Positions 8,749-20,666 of a stretch of DNA of 64,000 nt are shown here, in pieces. This stretch comes from Escherichia phage vB_EcoM_JN03. The notes under the pieces are model-generated. The model had not been told where the DNA came from. It was given only the letters and a program-made list of their open reading frames with translations, and made no database searches. Within the stretch, counting starts at the first letter, position 1. Each line of letters opens with the position of its first letter. The stretch lies in the sequence record OR885871. One strand, written 5' to 3'. A program made the position numbers and the translations under genes.

Positions 8749-9984
8749 TCAGCGCTTCAACAAAGACATGAGGTTTACACTGGTCGACTTCGGATTGTCC
8801 TCTATCTTTCGGACGGGCATTTTCAGATTAGTGTAAACCTCAGATGGTTCCCAACGCGTACCCTGCTGTAAATGCCATATATGTAGAGGAACACCCGTCT
8901 CAAAGAACACAGGCATCTTCCACTTCTGGACGCCAGGAACGTGCCCTGCAGGAGCTTTTTCGCACAACAGGGTATCTGGTAGCCAGAGTGAACGGGCTTC
9001 CCATAATGCCTTACAGGAGTATTCAGGCCAAATACGTTCCATATAATCGATCTCGTCCCATGTACGCTCGGCGTCCCACCCGATGTAACGGGTATTCTTC
9101 AGTCGGAAGAATTTCTTCAGCCAACAAGCACCGGAGGTCTCAAAGTTCAGACGATTGATAAACGTGATGTGGCCAAACTCTTCAACGCATTCCTGAAACG
9201 CTTTCTCAAGGTCGGTTTCGAGTATATCACATTCTTCGTCTGTAATAGGACAACCGTTAATCTTTTTCTTCCCGTGCTTGGTCACCCAATCATCACGGTT
9301 GGATAAGAATGCCGCGCCGTTACGATTGGATTCGCTACCATCACGGTCACGCAACATGAAACCAGGGACGTCTATATCCCATATGTTACCGAAGACCATG
9401 TTCAGGGCTTCCAGGAAGTTCCATGCGCTCAGGCGACCGAAGTATTTCCATGACATCGCCGTATTCCACAGTTCAGTGAACTGGTCTTCCTTGGTAGTGC
9501 ATTCCAACATCCAACGAAAAGAATCCATTTGGGTTTTACCACCCAACCAATCGATATAGGACTGAACGCACGGAATCATCTTCGACTTACGATAACGACA
9601 ATCTGTATCGAAGCGCATACGATCAAAGTTCAGGTTATACCAATCAGAAAATCGCTGAAACTCTTTCGGAGATTGTGGGGGTACAGGAAATTCACTGTAA
9701 ATTGTCCATGGTCCAATCCCATTATAGCAACAACCCCACAAAAAGGCCATCCAAATCTTGCGCTCGATCTTCTCGAGCTGTGTGATGCCTTCTGTAACCT
9801 CTATGGCATAATCCATCAGACGGACTTGCTGGTTATGCTCTTCAGTGTAGGATAGCGCCTCCACCCATGCCTTGAGCAGGTACATGCGATTTTCTGGCTT
9901 ACGATAATCTACTGCCAGATCAATCGGGTATTTCCATTTTTCAGGGGCTTTATACCCCTGCGGCATTTTAGACAGATGCGTCAT
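8749..9984 (-). CDS. Trp-rich enzyme-sized protein, candidate aGPT-Pplase-like thymidine hypermodification enzyme
   Basis: 411-aa Trp/Tyr-rich ORF; sits 0.5 kb from a P-loop kinase and HAD phosphatase; assignment is by context and composition only. Confidence 0.3.
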   Translation of the reverse strand: MTHLSKMPQGYKAPEKWKYPIDLAVDYRKPENRMYLLKAWVEALSYTEEHNQQVRLMDYAIEVTEGITQLEKIERKIWMAFLWGCCYNGIGPWTIYSEFPVPPQSPKEFQRFSDWYNLNFDRMRFDTDCRYRKSKMIPCVQSYIDWLGGKTQMDSFRWMLECTTKEDQFTELWNTAMSWKYFGRLSAWNFLEALNMVFGNIWDIDVPGFMLRDRDGSESNRNGAAFLSNRDDWVTKHGKKKINGCPITDEECDILETDLEKAFQECVEEFGHITFINRLNFETSGACWLKKFFRLKNTRYIGWDAERTWDEIDYMERIWPEYSCKALWEARSLWLPDTLLCEKAPAGHVPGVQKWKMPVFFETGVPLHIWHLQQGTRWEPSEVYTNLKMPVRKIEDNPKSTSVNLMSLLKR

Positions 9985-10318
9985 CCTTCACCTCGGCTTC
10001 GAGTTGGATATCTTCGGGGCTTACTACGGGCTGTCCCAGAGACCAGATAGGCAGGAAACGACGATCATTCGTCACCAACCAAATTTGCTTGGCGGTTTTC
10101 GTCTTTTCGGAAATAAAATGCTGGGCATTGACTTGGGTACGAGCCAAACCCACCTGACGCCAAGAACCGAAATCCTTAGAAGAAGGATTGGTATTCAGTT
10201 GAAATTGTGGGACGATTTTATTCTGTTCCGGATAATAACGGACAGCGTTAATCATCTTCGCATCACCACGGTAATCAATAGCAACAGCGACAACGTTGCG
10301 TGGAATGAGGATTTTCAT
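9968..10318 (-). CDS. hypothetical protein (116 aa)
   Basis: ORF in array. Confidence 0.4.
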   Translation of the reverse strand: MKILIPRNVVAVAIDYRGDAKMINAVRYYPEQNKIVPQFQLNTNPSSKDFGSWRQVGLARTQVNAQHFISEKTKTAKQIWLVTNDRRFLPIWSLGQPVVSPEDIQLEAEVKDDASV

Positions 10319-10319
10319 T

Positions 10320-10523
10320 TTAATTCCTTTTGAAACTCTGAATTATGTTATAGACGAAAGGCGTTAATAAGATAGCACCCCCCAAATAATATAACGCGTA
10401 AACGTTCAATATTTCGGTTGAATCCAACTCAACGATGCCCAAATATTTCATGACACCGACAAGCACAGCTGTGATACACATCACCAATCCGACGAACACA
10501 AAATATTTAGACATCTGTTTCAT
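10320..10523 (-). CDS. small membrane protein (67 aa)
   Basis: Hydrophobic ORF with two predicted TM segments. Confidence 0.35.
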   Translation of the reverse strand: MKQMSKYFVFVGLVMCITAVLVGVMKYLGIVELDSTEILNVYALYYLGGAILLTPFVYNIIQSFKRN

Positions 10524-10525
10524 TT

Positions 10526-18495: not shown

Positions 18496-18948
18496 CCCGT
18501 CCCAGAAATCGTCATCATCGTCTACGTTGTCAAACGCAGAATCCAATTCTTCGTCAGAGTACTCTGGAAGACGACCATTCTGTTTCAGATATTCAATTTC
18601 GTCATCTTCCAATTGAAGATCCGTGGCTATAAACAGCGCCCCTGTTTCTTCATCGTGCTCAATACTGTAAGATGTATATTCAGCACCCTGGACTGTAATG
18701 ATGATAGACGTCGGGTCTTCTGGGTCCACATGGGCTTCAAACGGGATACCGTCAATCGGGGCGTCCTCTAAAAATGTAGCAAGAGCTACGGCGGCGCGGA
18801 CGACGTCTGTCCCTTGTACGGAAGCATAAATCTCTTCAGCGCCTGTTTCCCCGCGCTCAAAGAATTCAATCGTAGTCCCGTCTTGAACACCAGTCCAGAT
18901 AGGCATATCTGCTGGGGAATCAGATTCAAATAATTTAGAAATTGGCAT
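18490..18948 (-). CDS. highly acidic protein (candidate DNA mimic)
   Basis: 152 aa, Asp/Glu-rich throughout, C-terminus NVDDDDDFWDGK. Confidence 0.45.
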   Translation of the reverse strand: MPISKLFESDSPADMPIWTGVQDGTTIEFFERGETGAEEIYASVQGTDVVRAAVALATFLEDAPIDGIPFEAHVDPEDPTSIIITVQGAEYTSYSIEHDEETGALFIATDLQLEDDEIEYLKQNGRLPEYSDEELDSAFDNVDDDDDFWDGK

Positions 18949-18983
18949 GGCAATGTCCTCTTGAATAAAACGCTTTGGACTAT

Positions 18984-19433
18984 TTAGGCTTCTCTGGTCG
19001 CCAGCCCTGGCTTAAACACCACCATTTCCTCAACGTTATTGGCACTCATAGAGGCTATGGAATCGAACCCTTTGTTGATAAGTTCTTTCACATTATCATG
19101 TATCTTACCAGGCTTTATCCCCAACTCTCGCATTTTATTTTCCCACACCGAAACATTGTTGGAATCTATTACAAGAGTCTTCTTGGCCTTGACACGAAAT
19201 GCCATGACAATAGGTTCACCAGATTGACGATAGCGCACGGCATTTTCTGCGTAGATCTGTGCCTTTTCTGGATCCCCTGTCAGGTAAAACCCAGCACCCA
19301 TCGTACCAGAGTCAGTCTGGCCAAATTTTTCAAAATCAAAGATATCGAATTCAACATTAGACCCATGATACAAAACGATATTCGTAAAATCAGGTAACGT
19401 TGATTCGCGATAAAATTCTAGAAAGGTTTTCAT
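18984..19433 (-). CDS. candidate ADP-ribosyltransferase-fold protein
   Basis: 149 aa; LYHGS motif near N-terminus followed by GFYLTGDPEKAQIYAE, resembling the H-Y-E type ART arrangement. Confidence 0.3.
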   Translation of the reverse strand: MKTFLEFYRESTLPDFTNIVLYHGSNVEFDIFDFEKFGQTDSGTMGAGFYLTGDPEKAQIYAENAVRYRQSGEPIVMAFRVKAKKTLVIDSNNVSVWENKMRELGIKPGKIHDNVKELINKGFDSIASMSANNVEEMVVFKPGLATREA

Positions 19434-19472
19434 AGATACCCCACACTGGTTGTATGGGGTATTTAGGATGGA

Positions 19473-20666
19473 TTAGCTGGGGACAAACTCATTCACAGGG
19501 ACATGTTCAGGTATTGATAATTCAGGGCAAGCAGCTTTCATCGCTTCCATATATGGCTTGCTACCCACGATCCAAAACAATGAGTTCTCATTAAGCAATT
19601 CTGGTTTGTGTTCCTGTATCCATGTCATCACCTTCCCTTCATAACGAGGATGCAACTCAATATCTCCCCACTGGTAATCCATGAGGTCGTTGTAACGAAC
19701 CCAATTAGTGGTATGAAGATCCCAATGGTGTACCTCAAAACGAGGAAGCACGATATCCGGCTCGTTCTTTGGCCTGATACCACTTAGGAGGCCAGCCAGC
19801 GAAACGCTCTTAGAGGCATGCTGGAGATCCTTCTTACCATACACATAGTCTGGGTTGTCGTGATAGCGACGAGTGAAATCAGTTATGTGAGGGAGGTTTG
19901 CTTGCTTACCGATAATGCGCAAACGACTTTCAATGAAATCTAATCGGTTTGGGCCAATCCCGATCAGATAAACATTCTTCAGATTTGGTTTCGGATGCAT
20001 CGCCAAACCTGTCAGGATACTGGTGCATGAATTACAAGAACCAGCAGGAATGATCAGATCGGTGATATGGTCTGGGATATTGGCAACCTGCTCGCCACCC
20101 AGCATATGGAATCCAGCAATGCGTTCTGGTGAATGAACGGTATGATCCAATGTAATGCCATATTCCAGATAATACGCCTTTGGATTTAATTGTTCAATGA
20201 GTTTCTTACAGCGCGGCTGAATGGTGCTATTGTAACCAGATCCAACAAAGTTGAACTCACTACCAAACCATGCTGACATTGAAACCATATCATGATTCAT
20301 GCATGTGGTTGGTTTAGTGGCACCCAGCACAGTGGTTGTCTTGCCGCCGAAATGCCGTGAGACTGCCGTCGCCATAGGGGACTGCGGACTACCAACGACA
20401 GTACCATGGATAAGATCTGGGGATCCTCCAGCTTTCAGATGCTCCATCATGAGCCAGATGGCCTGACGGAGTTTGCTGCCATTGATCCCCTGCTTGCCAT
20501 CCATATAGCATGACAAAGGCGCGAAGTAATCTTCACGTTTGAACCAAACCTGCTGATTGGTTTCTGGATTGGCAATAAGTTCGCACGGGGTGTGTTTGTA
20601 GAGATAATCTTCCCAGTGAACCAGATTACGGTCGAGGGAAAGGGTATCGAAGATGGTTTTGTTCAT
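19473..20666 (-). CDS. PLP-dependent enzyme, fold type II (ACC deaminase / D-cysteine desulfhydrase-like)
   Basis: N-terminal FKREDYFAPL...INGSKLRQ pattern with candidate PLP lysine; 397 aa. Confidence 0.45.
   Translation of the reverse strand: MNKTIFDTLSLDRNLVHWEDYLYKHTPCELIANPETNQQVWFKREDYFAPLSCYMDGKQGINGSKLRQAIWLMMEHLKAGGSPDLIHGTVVGSPQSPMATAVSRHFGGKTTTVLGATKPTTCMNHDMVSMSAWFGSEFNFVGSGYNSTIQPRCKKLIEQLNPKAYYLEYGITLDHTVHSPERIAGFHMLGGEQVANIPDHITDLIIPAGSCNSCTSILTGLAMHPKPNLKNVYLIGIGPNRLDFIESRLRIIGKQANLPHITDFTRRYHDNPDYVYGKKDLQHASKSVSLAGLLSGIRPKNEPDIVLPRFEVHHWDLHTTNWVRYNDLMDYQWGDIELHPRYEGKVMTWIQEHKPELLNENSLFWIVGSKPYMEAMKAACPELSIPEHVPVNEFVPS

What the first reader, a model, noticed from the sequence alone, without database searches (positions are those of the whole stretch)
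8749..20666. Scattered candidate thymidine hypermodification gene set
A Trp-rich 411-aa protein (possible aGPT-Pplase), a P-loop kinase (VVKGTSGVGKGT), a HAD phosphatase (VDVDLTL) and a fold-type II PLP enzyme (FKREDYF...INGSKLRQ) lie around the DNA polymerase. In ViI-like phages, 5-hydroxymethyl-dU in DNA is phosphorylated by a kinase, substituted by an aGPT-Pplase and then decarboxylated by a PLP enzyme. The same enzyme classes are present here, so the genome may carry a hypermodified thymine, possibly a variant.
Basis: inference. Interest (0 to 1): 0.6.

Follow-up and report, generated by a model that had tools for sequence, protein, structure and literature searches.

The report
Known ViI-type thymidine hypermodification genes
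This window comes from a ViI-like (Kuttervirus) Salmonella/E. coli phage, and three of the four flagged genes are near-identical copies of enzymes already shown to turn part of the thymine in phage DNA into 5-(2-aminoethoxy)methyluracil, so the finding is correct but ordinary.

Summary
The window is itself a Kuttervirus (Ackermannviridae): the region is 98% identical in DNA to Salmonella phages SeHz-1 and Det7.

- **411-aa protein:** the ortholog of ViI gp247, the serine:DNA transferase (Pfam ADDT, formerly aGPT-Pplase clade 2). It is 92% identical to ViI and 96% to CBA120.
- **301-aa P-loop protein:** the ortholog of ViI gp243, a 5-hmdU DNA kinase of clade 2 (86% to ViI, 99% to CBA120).
- **397-aa PLP protein:** the ortholog of ViI gp226, the O-serinylthymidine decarboxylase (93% to ViI, 99% to CBA120).

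Catalytic residues are conserved and the predicted folds match. ViI and CBA120 virion DNA were shown by LC-MS to carry 5-NeOmdU at about 40% of T, so this phage is expected to make the same base, not a variant.

The HAD protein is an NT5C-type deoxyribonucleotidase-like enzyme. It is not in the experimentally sufficient gene set. It does keep its place between the polymerase and the kinase in distant ViI-like phages, so a role in the nucleotide pool is plausible but untested.

The other pathway genes lie outside the window: dUMP hydroxymethyltransferase, kinase 1 (gp67) and gp160. Verdict: already known.

The parts
8749..9984 (-). Amino acid:DNA transferase (ADDT, formerly aGPT-Pplase clade 2). 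Ortholog of ViI gp247 (YP_004327568), the serine:DNA transferase that converts 5-phosphomethyl-dU in DNA to 5-O-serinylthymidine.
   Evidence: PF18724 E 1.8e-57, 195 bits. 92% identical to ViI gp247 over 411/411 residues and in the same syntenic position. 96% identical to CBA120 orf248, with the differences almost all in the low-confidence C-terminal tail. E282, T283 and C287 are invariant in 26 homologs and align with E243, T244 and C247 of PaMx11 gp46. The AF2 model (pLDDT 89.4) has PUGT/gp46 structures 8z2n and 8z2m as its only confident PDB hits.
10526..11431 (-). 5-hmdU DNA kinase, clade 2 (HMUD2). Ortholog of ViI gp243 (YP_004327565). It phosphorylates the 5-hydroxymethyl group of hmdU in DNA to give 5-PmdU.
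   Evidence: PF18747 E 6.5e-150 over the full length. 86% identical to ViI gp243 and 99% to CBA120 orf243. Walker A GTSGVGKGT at residues 9-17. ViI gp243 kinase activity on 5-hmdU DNA was shown in PMC8989533.
19473..20666 (-). PLP-dependent decarboxylase with a fold-type II structure. Ortholog of ViI gp226 (YP_004327553). It decarboxylates 5-O-serinylthymidine in DNA to 5-NeOmdU.
   Evidence: 93% identical to ViI gp226 and 99% to CBA120 orf228. K65 corresponds to ViI K92, the proposed Schiff-base lysine, and is invariant in 30 homologs. The AF2 model (pLDDT 89.6) matches D-cysteine desulfhydrase and ACC deaminase, including 1j0a. Pfam PALP scores 31.5 bits, just below its gathering cut-off of 35.
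11747..12529 (-). HAD-superfamily protein resembling NT5C-type 5'(3')-deoxyribonucleotidases. The maximal ORF runs to 12589. Ortholog of ViI orf00239 (YP_004327563). Probably an accessory enzyme acting on the nucleotide pool; not a demonstrated pathway member.
   Evidence: PF06941 NT5C E 8.7e-8, above its cut-off. Weak PDB sequence hits only to 5'(3')-deoxyribonucleotidases such as 3bwv and human mdN; motif IV (LIDDNP) lies inside the scoring alignment, while motif I (DVDLT) is aligned only in a non-significant stretch. 86% identical to ViI. Homologs occupy the same slot, polymerase then HAD then HMUD2, in distant ViI-like phages L008 and L011. Absent from the reconstitution gene set.
12945..15941 (-). 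Family-B DNA polymerase. This is the enzyme inferred to incorporate 5-hmdUTP, the pre-replicative step.
   Evidence: 998 aa; 98% identical to the ViI polymerase and 99.8% to the CBA120 polymerase. Annotated as DNA polymerase in relatives. The hmdUTP-incorporating role is taken from PMC5889632, which describes it for phiW-14 and SP10; its application to this phage is inferred.
9968..11736 (-). Small conserved genes interleaved with the kinase and transferase: a 116-aa protein (9968-10318), a 67-aa membrane protein (10320-10523) and a DUF7254 protein (11431-11736). No assigned role in the pathway.
   Evidence: PHROG and Pfam families of unknown function. Conserved in ViI and CBA120. Not conserved in L008 or L011.
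8484..8519 (-). Strong terminator-like hairpin (16-bp stem followed by a T-run) downstream of the transferase gene. Probably the end of the minus-strand transcription unit.
   Evidence: Terminator-like sites are enriched in the region (24 found against 11.0 +/- 3.6 in shuffles).

Best explanation
The window is part of a Kuttervirus (ViI-like, Ackermannviridae) genome. It carries three of the phage's five dedicated post-replicative thymidine-hypermodification genes.

The mechanism was established for ViI and is inferred here by orthology.

1. Outside the window, a thymidylate-synthase-like dUMP hydroxymethyltransferase makes 5-hmdUMP. This is raised to the triphosphate and incorporated by the phage polymerase (12945-15941).
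2. The 5-hmdU DNA kinase (10526-11431, working alongside its paralog gp67 encoded elsewhere) phosphorylates the hydroxymethyl group on DNA to give 5-PmdU.
3. The amino acid:DNA transferase (8749-9984) uses Cys287 and Glu282 to expel phosphate through an exocyclic methylene intermediate. It then adds the side-chain oxygen of free L-serine, giving 5-O-serinylthymidine.
4. The PLP enzyme (19473-20666, Schiff-base Lys65) decarboxylates this to 5-(2-aminoethoxy)methyl-dU (5-NeOmdU).

5-NeOmdU replaces a fraction of T, about 40% in ViI and CBA120, and blocks many restriction endonucleases.

The HAD/NT5C-like protein (11747-12529) is most likely a deoxyribonucleotidase acting on the nucleotide pool, for example limiting dTMP or dUMP. 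This is inferred. It is not needed for the DNA-level chemistry.
For: **Identity of the phage.** The 12-kb region is 98.6% identical to Salmonella phage SeHz-1 and 98.2% to Det7. It matches 277 phage records, nearly all with Ackermannviridae-type enterobacterial hosts. Relatives are classified as Kuttervirus.

**Orthology.** The accession numbers in Table 1 of PMC8989533 map onto the ViI annotation. The window proteins are 92%, 86% and 93% identical to gp247, gp243 and gp226 in the same gene order. They are 96%, 99% and 99% identical to the CBA120 proteins.

**Family membership.** PF18724 and PF18747 score far above their cut-offs. E282, T283, C287 and K65 are invariant across homologs. The predicted folds match PUGT/gp46 and fold-type II PLP enzymes.

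**Chemistry.** Purified ViI gp247 transfers serine, and purified gp226 decarboxylates the O-SerT product to a 301-u nucleoside. Mutating the Cys or the Glu abolishes transferase activity (PMC8989533).

**Product in relatives.** A 301-Da nucleoside with the same retention time and mass as the ViI base (identified as 5-NeOmdU) was measured in CBA6, CBA120 and Vibrio phage 1.255.O (PMC5889632). 5-NeOmdU was also found in Taipeivirus phiHS2.

**Rest of the pathway.** Homologs of gp160 occur in 353 phage records and homologs of the ThyA-like enzyme in 279, including close relatives of this window.
Against: No biochemistry or nucleoside analysis exists for this particular phage. The dUMP hydroxymethyltransferase, gp67 and gp160 are not in the 64-kb window, so their presence in this genome is inferred from relatives. 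The Pfam PALP hit for the PLP enzyme is slightly below its gathering score. Sequence-only searches did not link the transferase to the solved PaMx11 gp46 structure. That link rests on the shared Pfam family, a short motif alignment and a moderate structural match (TM 0.56).
Confidence: 0.93

Rival explanations
1. The gene set makes a variant hypermodified thymine: a different amino acid is attached, or the attached group is processed differently from 5-NeOmdU.
For: Enzymes of the ADDT family do differ in substrate: glycine in M6 and PaMx11, putrescine in phiW-14, serine in ViI. The window transferase differs from ViI gp247 at 34 positions, some clustered at residues 147-176.
Against: The transferase is 96% identical to that of CBA120, with the differences essentially confined to the disordered C-terminal tail. 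The kinase and PLP enzyme are 99% identical to CBA120. CBA120 DNA contains the 301-Da base. Relatives whose ADDT homologs are far more divergent (the Vibrio phage homologs found are about 50% identical) still make 5-NeOmdU. All family-invariant residues are retained.
Confidence: 0.03
2. The HAD/NT5C-like protein is a genuine additional component of the hypermodification system. It could be a dTMP/dUMP nucleotidase that sets the ratio of T to hmdU, or a phosphatase acting on 5-PmdU.
For: Homologs sit in the same slot, immediately after the polymerase and before the HMUD2 kinase, in two distant ViI-like lineages where the whole pathway is one contiguous cluster. These are L008 (22% identity, E 9e-9) and L011 (27% identity, E 1e-17). 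Its distribution among phages closely tracks that of gp160. It is absent from the small Tet_JBP-kinase-ADDT clusters. Those clusters would be expected to make hmU on DNA, so they would need no manipulation of the nucleotide pool.
Against: It is not among the five ViI genes sufficient for lysate reconstitution. Purified kinase, gp247 and gp226 suffice for the DNA-level steps. Conserved position within one phage family may simply be inherited synteny beside the polymerase. No hits were seen in M6, PaMx11, phiW-14 or SP10-type phages at E<1e-3 (organism list). Its substrate is unknown.
Confidence: 0.2
3. These are ordinary small-molecule metabolic enzymes, as many GenBank records label them (guanylate kinase, threonine ammonia-lyase/deaminase), and are unrelated to DNA modification.
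For: Database annotations in relatives read 'guanylate kinase' and 'putative threonine ammonia lyase'.
Against: Direct biochemistry on the ViI orthologs shows that both act on DNA-borne substrates. The kinase matches the dedicated HMUD2 family at E 6.5e-150. Nothing here or in the cited work ties these proteins to the labelled activities.
Confidence: 0.01

Closest known systems
Salmonella phage ViI (Vi01) 5-NeOmdU pathway: gp243 (5-hmdU DNA kinase), gp247 (serine:DNA transferase), gp226 (PLP decarboxylase); Lee et al. 2018 (PMC5889632) and 2021 (PMC8989533)
   Same: Same genus. Same gene order: PLP gene ... polymerase, lipoprotein, HAD, DUF7254, kinase, two small ORFs, transferase. Protein identity is 86-93%. 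The catalytic Cys/Glu and the Schiff-base Lys are retained.
   Different: There are 7-14% amino-acid differences. The PLP ORF here starts 27 codons downstream of the ViI annotation, and most homologs share this shorter start. No functional difference is indicated.
Escherichia phage CBA120 orf248, orf243 and orf228 (virion DNA shown to contain the 301-Da nucleoside)
   Same: Protein identity is 96%, 99% and 99%, and the polymerase is 99.8% identical. The locus layout is identical except as noted.
   Different: CBA120 has one extra small ORF (orf247) upstream of the transferase and a different transferase C-terminal tail. The tRNA and tail-spike content nearby also differs.
Pseudomonas phage PaMx11 gp46 (PUGT, PDB 8z2m and 8z2n) and M6 gp51: glycine:DNA transferases of the same Pfam family (ADDT)
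   Same: Same Pfam family. It is the only confident structural match. The E-T-x(2-3)-C active-site motif is shared.
   Different: Only about 15% identity. The window protein is about 120 residues longer. The nucleophile is the serine hydroxyl (C-O bond), not the glycine alpha-amine (C-N bond). Downstream tailoring differs: a radical SAM isomerase or an FAD lyase plus acetyltransferase in the M6 and PaMx11 lineages.
Delftia phage phiW-14 (alpha-putrescinylthymine) and Bacillus phage SP10 (alpha-glutamylthymine)
   Same: Same overall logic: hmdU is incorporated, then activated by a kinase on the DNA, then substituted by an ADDT-type enzyme.
   Different: Different appended group, and no PLP decarboxylation step.

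Membership tests
Amino acid:DNA transferase (Pfam PF18724 ADDT, formerly aGPT-Pplase clade 2) | Significant match to the family HMM above the curated cut-off | tested here: met
   195.1 bits against a cut-off of 26.2, E 1.8e-57, covering 227 of 232 profile positions.
Amino acid:DNA transferase (Pfam PF18724 ADDT, formerly aGPT-Pplase clade 2) | Conserved catalytic cysteine with a neighbouring glutamate. Both are essential by mutagenesis in ViI gp247 and M6 gp51. | tested here: met
   E282, T283 and C287 are invariant in 26 homologs of 41-91% identity. hhalign places them on PaMx11 gp46 E243, T244 and C247. The mutagenesis is reported in PMC8989533.
Amino acid:DNA transferase (Pfam PF18724 ADDT, formerly aGPT-Pplase clade 2) | All-helical, DNA-glycosylase-like fold as in the solved PUGT/gp46 structure | tested here: met
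   The AF2 model has pLDDT 89.4. The top Foldseek PDB hits are 8z2n and 8z2m, with probability 1.00 and TM 0.56-0.57 normalised to the target. The next hits have probability of 0.13 or less. The sequence E-value is weak (0.02).
Amino acid:DNA transferase (Pfam PF18724 ADDT, formerly aGPT-Pplase clade 2) | Transfers L-serine through its side-chain O onto 5-PmdU in DNA | not testable with these tools
   Inferred from 92% identity to ViI gp247, for which the activity was shown with purified protein.
5-hmdU DNA kinase clade 2 (Pfam PF18747 HMUD2) | Full-length HMM match and an intact P-loop (Walker A) | tested here: met
   498.7 bits against a cut-off of 25, residues 1-300 on profile positions 1-298. 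GTSGVGKGT at residues 9-17.
5-hmdU DNA kinase clade 2 (Pfam PF18747 HMUD2) | Phosphorylates 5-hmdU within DNA using ATP | not testable with these tools
   Inferred from 86% identity to ViI gp243, which produced 5-PmdU in vitro.
Fold-type II PLP enzyme / ViI gp226-type nucleobase-amino-acid decarboxylase | Match to the Pfam PALP family | tested here: inconclusive
   E 1.5e-7, but 31.5 bits is below the gathering score of 35.
Fold-type II PLP enzyme / ViI gp226-type nucleobase-amino-acid decarboxylase | Tryptophan-synthase-beta-like fold with a conserved Schiff-base lysine | tested here: met
   The AF2 model (pLDDT 89.6) matches D-cysteine desulfhydrase 4d8t at E 7e-12 and ACC-deaminase homolog 1j0a at E 1.9e-10. 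K65, which corresponds to ViI K92, is invariant in 30 homologs.
Fold-type II PLP enzyme / ViI gp226-type nucleobase-amino-acid decarboxylase | Decarboxylates O-serinylthymidine in DNA | not testable with these tools
   Inferred from 93% identity to ViI gp226, whose activity was shown with purified protein.
HAD superfamily, NT5C-type 5'(3')-deoxyribonucleotidase (PF06941) | HMM match above the cut-off, plus motif I (DxDxT) and motif IV (acidic DD) | tested here: met
   32.7 bits against a cut-off of 24.8, but only residues 130-223 align. DVDLT at residues 43-47 and LIDDN at residue 209 of the 280-aa ORF. The only PDB sequence hits are deoxyribonucleotidases, at E 0.011-0.08.
ViI-type 5-NeOmdU biosynthetic gene set (complete pathway) | HAD phosphatase is a member of the set | tested here: inconclusive
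   It is not among the five genes used for reconstitution. It is nevertheless positionally conserved next to the kinase in L008 and L011.
ViI-type 5-NeOmdU biosynthetic gene set (complete pathway) | Presence of the dUMP hydroxymethyltransferase, HMUDK clade 1 (gp67) and gp160 (PF18723) | tested here: inconclusive
   None is in the window. By synteny with ViI they lie at about 37-39 kb and 87-89 kb of the ViI map, while the window corresponds to about 97 kb to the end of the map and a few kb past its start. Homologs are present in 279-353 related phage genomes.
ViI-type 5-NeOmdU biosynthetic gene set (complete pathway) | Virion DNA contains 5-NeOmdU (301 Da) | not testable with these tools
   Measured in ViI, CBA6, CBA120, 1.255.O and phiHS2, but not in this phage.

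The most novel reading that the evidence does not exclude
The NT5C-like HAD protein is always encoded between the polymerase and the HMUD2 kinase in ViI-like phages, and is absent from the Tet_JBP-kinase-ADDT clusters. It could be an unrecognised sixth component that tunes how much T versus hmdU, and hence 5-NeOmdU, enters DNA. It might do this by hydrolysing dTMP or dUMP, as the dTMP nucleotidases induced by hmdU-containing Bacillus phages do (the Bacillus phage precedent is from my own knowledge, not from a tool result). That would bear on the still-open question of where the remaining thymidine in partially modified genomes comes from.
Probability: 0.15. Interest if true: 0.4.

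Novelty: already known. Interest (0 to 1): 0.1.

Why it matters
It matters little as a discovery. The pathway, its enzymes and its product were described for ViI and its relatives in 2018 and 2021, and reviews already state that the genes are conserved across Ackermannviridae.

The practical value is in annotation. Many GenBank records of this phage group still label these genes 'guanylate kinase', 'threonine ammonia lyase' or 'hypothetical protein'. DNA of this phage should also be expected to resist many type II restriction enzymes, and perhaps some sequencing or cloning procedures.

The only open point touched on is the role of the conserved HAD nucleotidase-like gene.

Tried and rejected
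- **Sequence searches of the PDB.** I searched with the 411-aa protein alone and with a 20-sequence profile. Only chance hits came back, and PaMx11 gp46 was not recovered. hhalign against gp46 aligned only the 16-residue active-site motif. The structural link needed AF2 plus Foldseek.
- **PDB search with the PLP protein.** phmmer found nothing. The fold was established by structure search.
- **NCBIfam.** No hits for any of six proteins. PHROGs gave only 'unknown function' or the misleading label 'guanylate kinase'.
- **A thioredoxin reductant.** Relatives annotate the DUF7254 protein (11431-11736) as 'putative thioredoxin'. I considered whether it could supply reducing power for hmdU-to-T conversion. 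I rejected this because the protein contains no cysteine at all (sequence).
- **Promoter scan.** Sigma-70-like sites are no more frequent than in shuffled sequence (25 against 22.6 +/- 5.4). No operon start is claimed, and only the terminator-like hairpin at 8484-8519 is reported.
- **First structure submission.** I rebuilt it as alignment A2.
- **EcoSal review.** The review by Hutinet et al. 2021 is not in the library.
- **Exact source phage.** No record covers more than 74% of the tail-spike region, so the exact genome could not be named.

Full report

| Coordinates | Size | Feature confirmed |
|---|---|---|
| 8749-9984 | 411 aa | 22 Trp, 5.4% against about 2.5% in neighbours |
| 10526-11431 | 301 aa | Walker A ...VVKGTSGVGKGT... 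|
| 11747-12589 | 280-aa maximal ORF | VDVDLTL |
| 19473-20666 | 397 aa | FKREDYF ... INGSKLRQ |

For the third ORF, the start used in annotated relatives is Met21, which gives 11747-12529. The ORFs flank a family-B DNA polymerase. Its true extent is 12945-15941 (998 aa), not the 1051-aa TTG-started ORF.

**What the window is.** Megablast of 8700-20700 finds 277 phage records. Matches run at 98.6% identity and full coverage to Salmonella phage SeHz-1, 98.2% to Det7, and similar values for many others. Relatives are classified as Ackermannviridae, Cvivirinae, Kuttervirus. The rest of the window is a typical Kuttervirus arm:

- a tRNA cluster;
- four tail-spike genes with Tail_spike_N domains;
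- terminase, tail sheath, a GIY-YIG endonuclease, portal and capsid genes.

**Orthology to the characterised ViI enzymes.** Lee et al. 2018 (PMC5889632) and 2021 (PMC8989533) define the ViI genes by accession:

- gp67, YP_004327432, and gp243, YP_004327565: 5-hmdU DNA kinases;
- gp247, YP_004327568: aGPT-Pplase2, the serine:DNA transferase;
- gp226, YP_004327553: the PLP-dependent decarboxylase;
- gp160: aGPT-Pplase1.

In the ViI record these accessions map onto a gene order that is the exact reverse complement of the window: PLP gene ... polymerase, lipoprotein, HAD, DUF7254, kinase, two small ORFs, transferase.

| Window protein | Identity to ViI | Identity to CBA120 |
|---|---|---|
| 411 aa | 92% to gp247 (377/411, no gaps) | 96.1% |
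| 301 aa | 86% to gp243 | 99.0% |
| 397 aa | 93% to gp226 | 99.0% |
| HAD | 86% to ViI orf00239 | 98.5% |
| polymerase | 98.3% | 99.8% |

The transferase differences from CBA120 lie almost entirely in the C-terminal tail, residues 384-401. The structure model has pLDDT below 50 from residue 388 onward.

**Family tests.**

- *Transferase.* It matches PF18724 'Amino acid:DNA transferase' at E 1.8e-57. E282, T283 and C287 are invariant among 26 homologs down to 41% identity. hhalign places them on E243, T244 and C247 of PaMx11 gp46, which are active-site residues in the crystal structure. Mutating the Cys or the Glu kills ViI gp247. An AF2 model (pLDDT 89.4) has the gp46/PUGT structures 8z2n and 8z2m as its only confident PDB matches (probability 1.00, TM 0.56).
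- *Kinase.* It matches PF18747 HMUD2 over its full length at E 6.5e-150.
- *PLP protein.* It scores just under the Pfam PALP cut-off (31.5 against 35 bits). Its AF2 model (pLDDT 89.6) matches fold-type II enzymes at E 7e-12 (D-cysteine desulfhydrase). The matches include 1j0a, the template cited by Lee et al.. K65, which corresponds to ViI K92, is invariant in 30 homologs.

**Mechanism.** This was shown for ViI and is inferred here.

1. 5-hmdU is incorporated into DNA.
2. The kinase makes 5-PmdU.
3. The transferase eliminates phosphate through a Cys-C6 adduct and an exocyclic methylene, then adds the serine hydroxyl to give O-SerT.
4. The PLP enzyme removes CO2 to give 5-NeOmdU.

[quoted passage not shown] It was measured directly in ViI, CBA6, CBA120 and the distant Vibrio phage 1.255.O. 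5-NeOmdU also replaces 16% of T in the Taipeivirus phiHS2. With 96-99% identity to the CBA120 enzymes, a 'variant' modification is very unlikely.

**What is not in the window.** In ViI, the ThyA-like dUMP hydroxymethyltransferase, a dNMP-kinase-like gene, a dUTPase_2 and gp67 (PF18748) lie at 36-39 kb. gp160 (PF18723) lies at 87.4-88.7 kb. By synteny the window corresponds to ViI from about 97 kb to the end of the map and a few kb past its start, so these genes fall outside it. Homologs are present in 279-353 related phage genomes, including close relatives of the window such as moki and S117.

**The HAD protein.**

- It matches NT5C (PF06941, E 8.7e-8, above the cut-off) over its C-terminal half.
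- It has DxDxT and LIDDNP motifs.
- Its only PDB sequence hits are 5'(3')-deoxyribonucleotidases.
- It is not one of the five genes sufficient for reconstitution, and purified kinase, gp247 and gp226 account for the DNA-level chemistry.
- In two distant ViI-like lineages the whole pathway is contiguous with the polymerase, and a HAD homolog occupies the same slot.
  - L008 reads polymerase, HAD, HMUD2, HMUD2, ADDT, one ORF, HMUDK_hel, two ORFs, ThyA-like, one ORF, dUTPase_2. Its HAD is 22% identical (E 9e-9).
  - L011, a Vibrio phage, reads polymerase, HAD, two ORFs, HMUD2, ADDT..., HMUDK_hel..., HMUD1, ThyA-like, one ORF, dUTPase_2. Its HAD is 27% identical (E 1e-17).
- It is absent from small metagenomic phage contigs carrying Tet_JBP, P-loop kinase and ADDT triads. 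I would expect those phages to make hmU on DNA, so they would need no change to the nucleotide pool.

This pattern fits an accessory role in the nucleotide pool, but it can equally be inherited synteny. I rate true pathway membership at about 0.2.

**Layout.** The genes from the polymerase to the transferase are packed with gaps of -17 to +78 nt. They are followed by a strong terminator-like hairpin at 8484-8519. Sigma-70-like promoter matches are not above chance.

**Verdict.** The system is the already-described ViI/Kuttervirus 5-NeOmdU pathway. Novelty: already known. Interest: low.

Noticed in passing
window 18984-19433 (-): A 149-aa protein next to the PLP gene matches ART-PolyVal (ADP-ribosyltransferase in polyvalent proteins, E 2.2e-10) and DUF3990. 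Relatives annotate it as a virion structural protein. It may be an ADP-ribosyltransferase-like protein packaged in the virion.
   Followed up: no
window 27000-47000 (tail-spike genes 31216-34509, 34612-36525, 36658-39438, 39490-41535): This is the four-tail-spike module typical of Kuttervirus; three of the four carry Tail_spike_N. No phage record covers more than 73-74% of the 20 kb at megablast level. At least one receptor-binding domain therefore has no near-identical counterpart in the collection.
   Followed up: partly
window 22664-23962 (-): tRNA cluster of Ser(GCT), Gln(TTG), Asn(GTT) and Met(CAT). In the stretch of the equivalent CBA120 region that I fetched, Asn, Ile and Ser are annotated, so the tRNA complement appears to differ between close relatives.
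   Followed up: partly
L008 4888-15961 and L011 4644-18011: In distant ViI-like phages (a 141-kb metagenomic contig and a Vibrio phage) the hypermodification genes form one contiguous cluster beside the polymerase. In Kuttervirus they are split among at least three loci. L008 has two tandem HMUD2 genes and no HMUD1, and neither cluster includes a PLP gene within 10 kb.
   Followed up: partly
L006 7860-11077, L007 256-2746, L012 7757-11179, L013 7865-11089: Small (25-35 kb) marine and metagenomic phage contigs carry a Tet_JBP dioxygenase, P-loop kinase (Ploopntkinase3-like) and ADDT triad. In three of the four loci (L006, L012, L013) a ParB_N gene is called just upstream. In L006, L007 and L013 the triad lies near the terminase gene, and in L012 near dUTPase and portal genes. 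L013 also has a PALP gene at the contig edge. This looks like a different route to hypermodified T, through oxidation of T in DNA.
   Followed up: partly
window 11431-11736 (-): The DUF7254 protein between the HAD and kinase genes is annotated 'putative thioredoxin' in several relatives. It contains no cysteine (sequence), so that label is very unlikely to be right.
   Followed up: yes
window 54359-54817 (+): A GIY-YIG homing-endonuclease gene lies between the tail sheath and tail tube genes (Pfam E 2.5e-11), as in ViI Vi01_159c.
   Followed up: no
window 843-3584 (-): A 913-aa ORF with no Pfam match at E<0.01.
   Followed up: no
window 16598-16617 and 18467-18487: G+C-rich hairpins that read as terminators on both strands lie at the boundaries of the plus-strand gene block between the polymerase and the PLP gene.
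   Followed up: no
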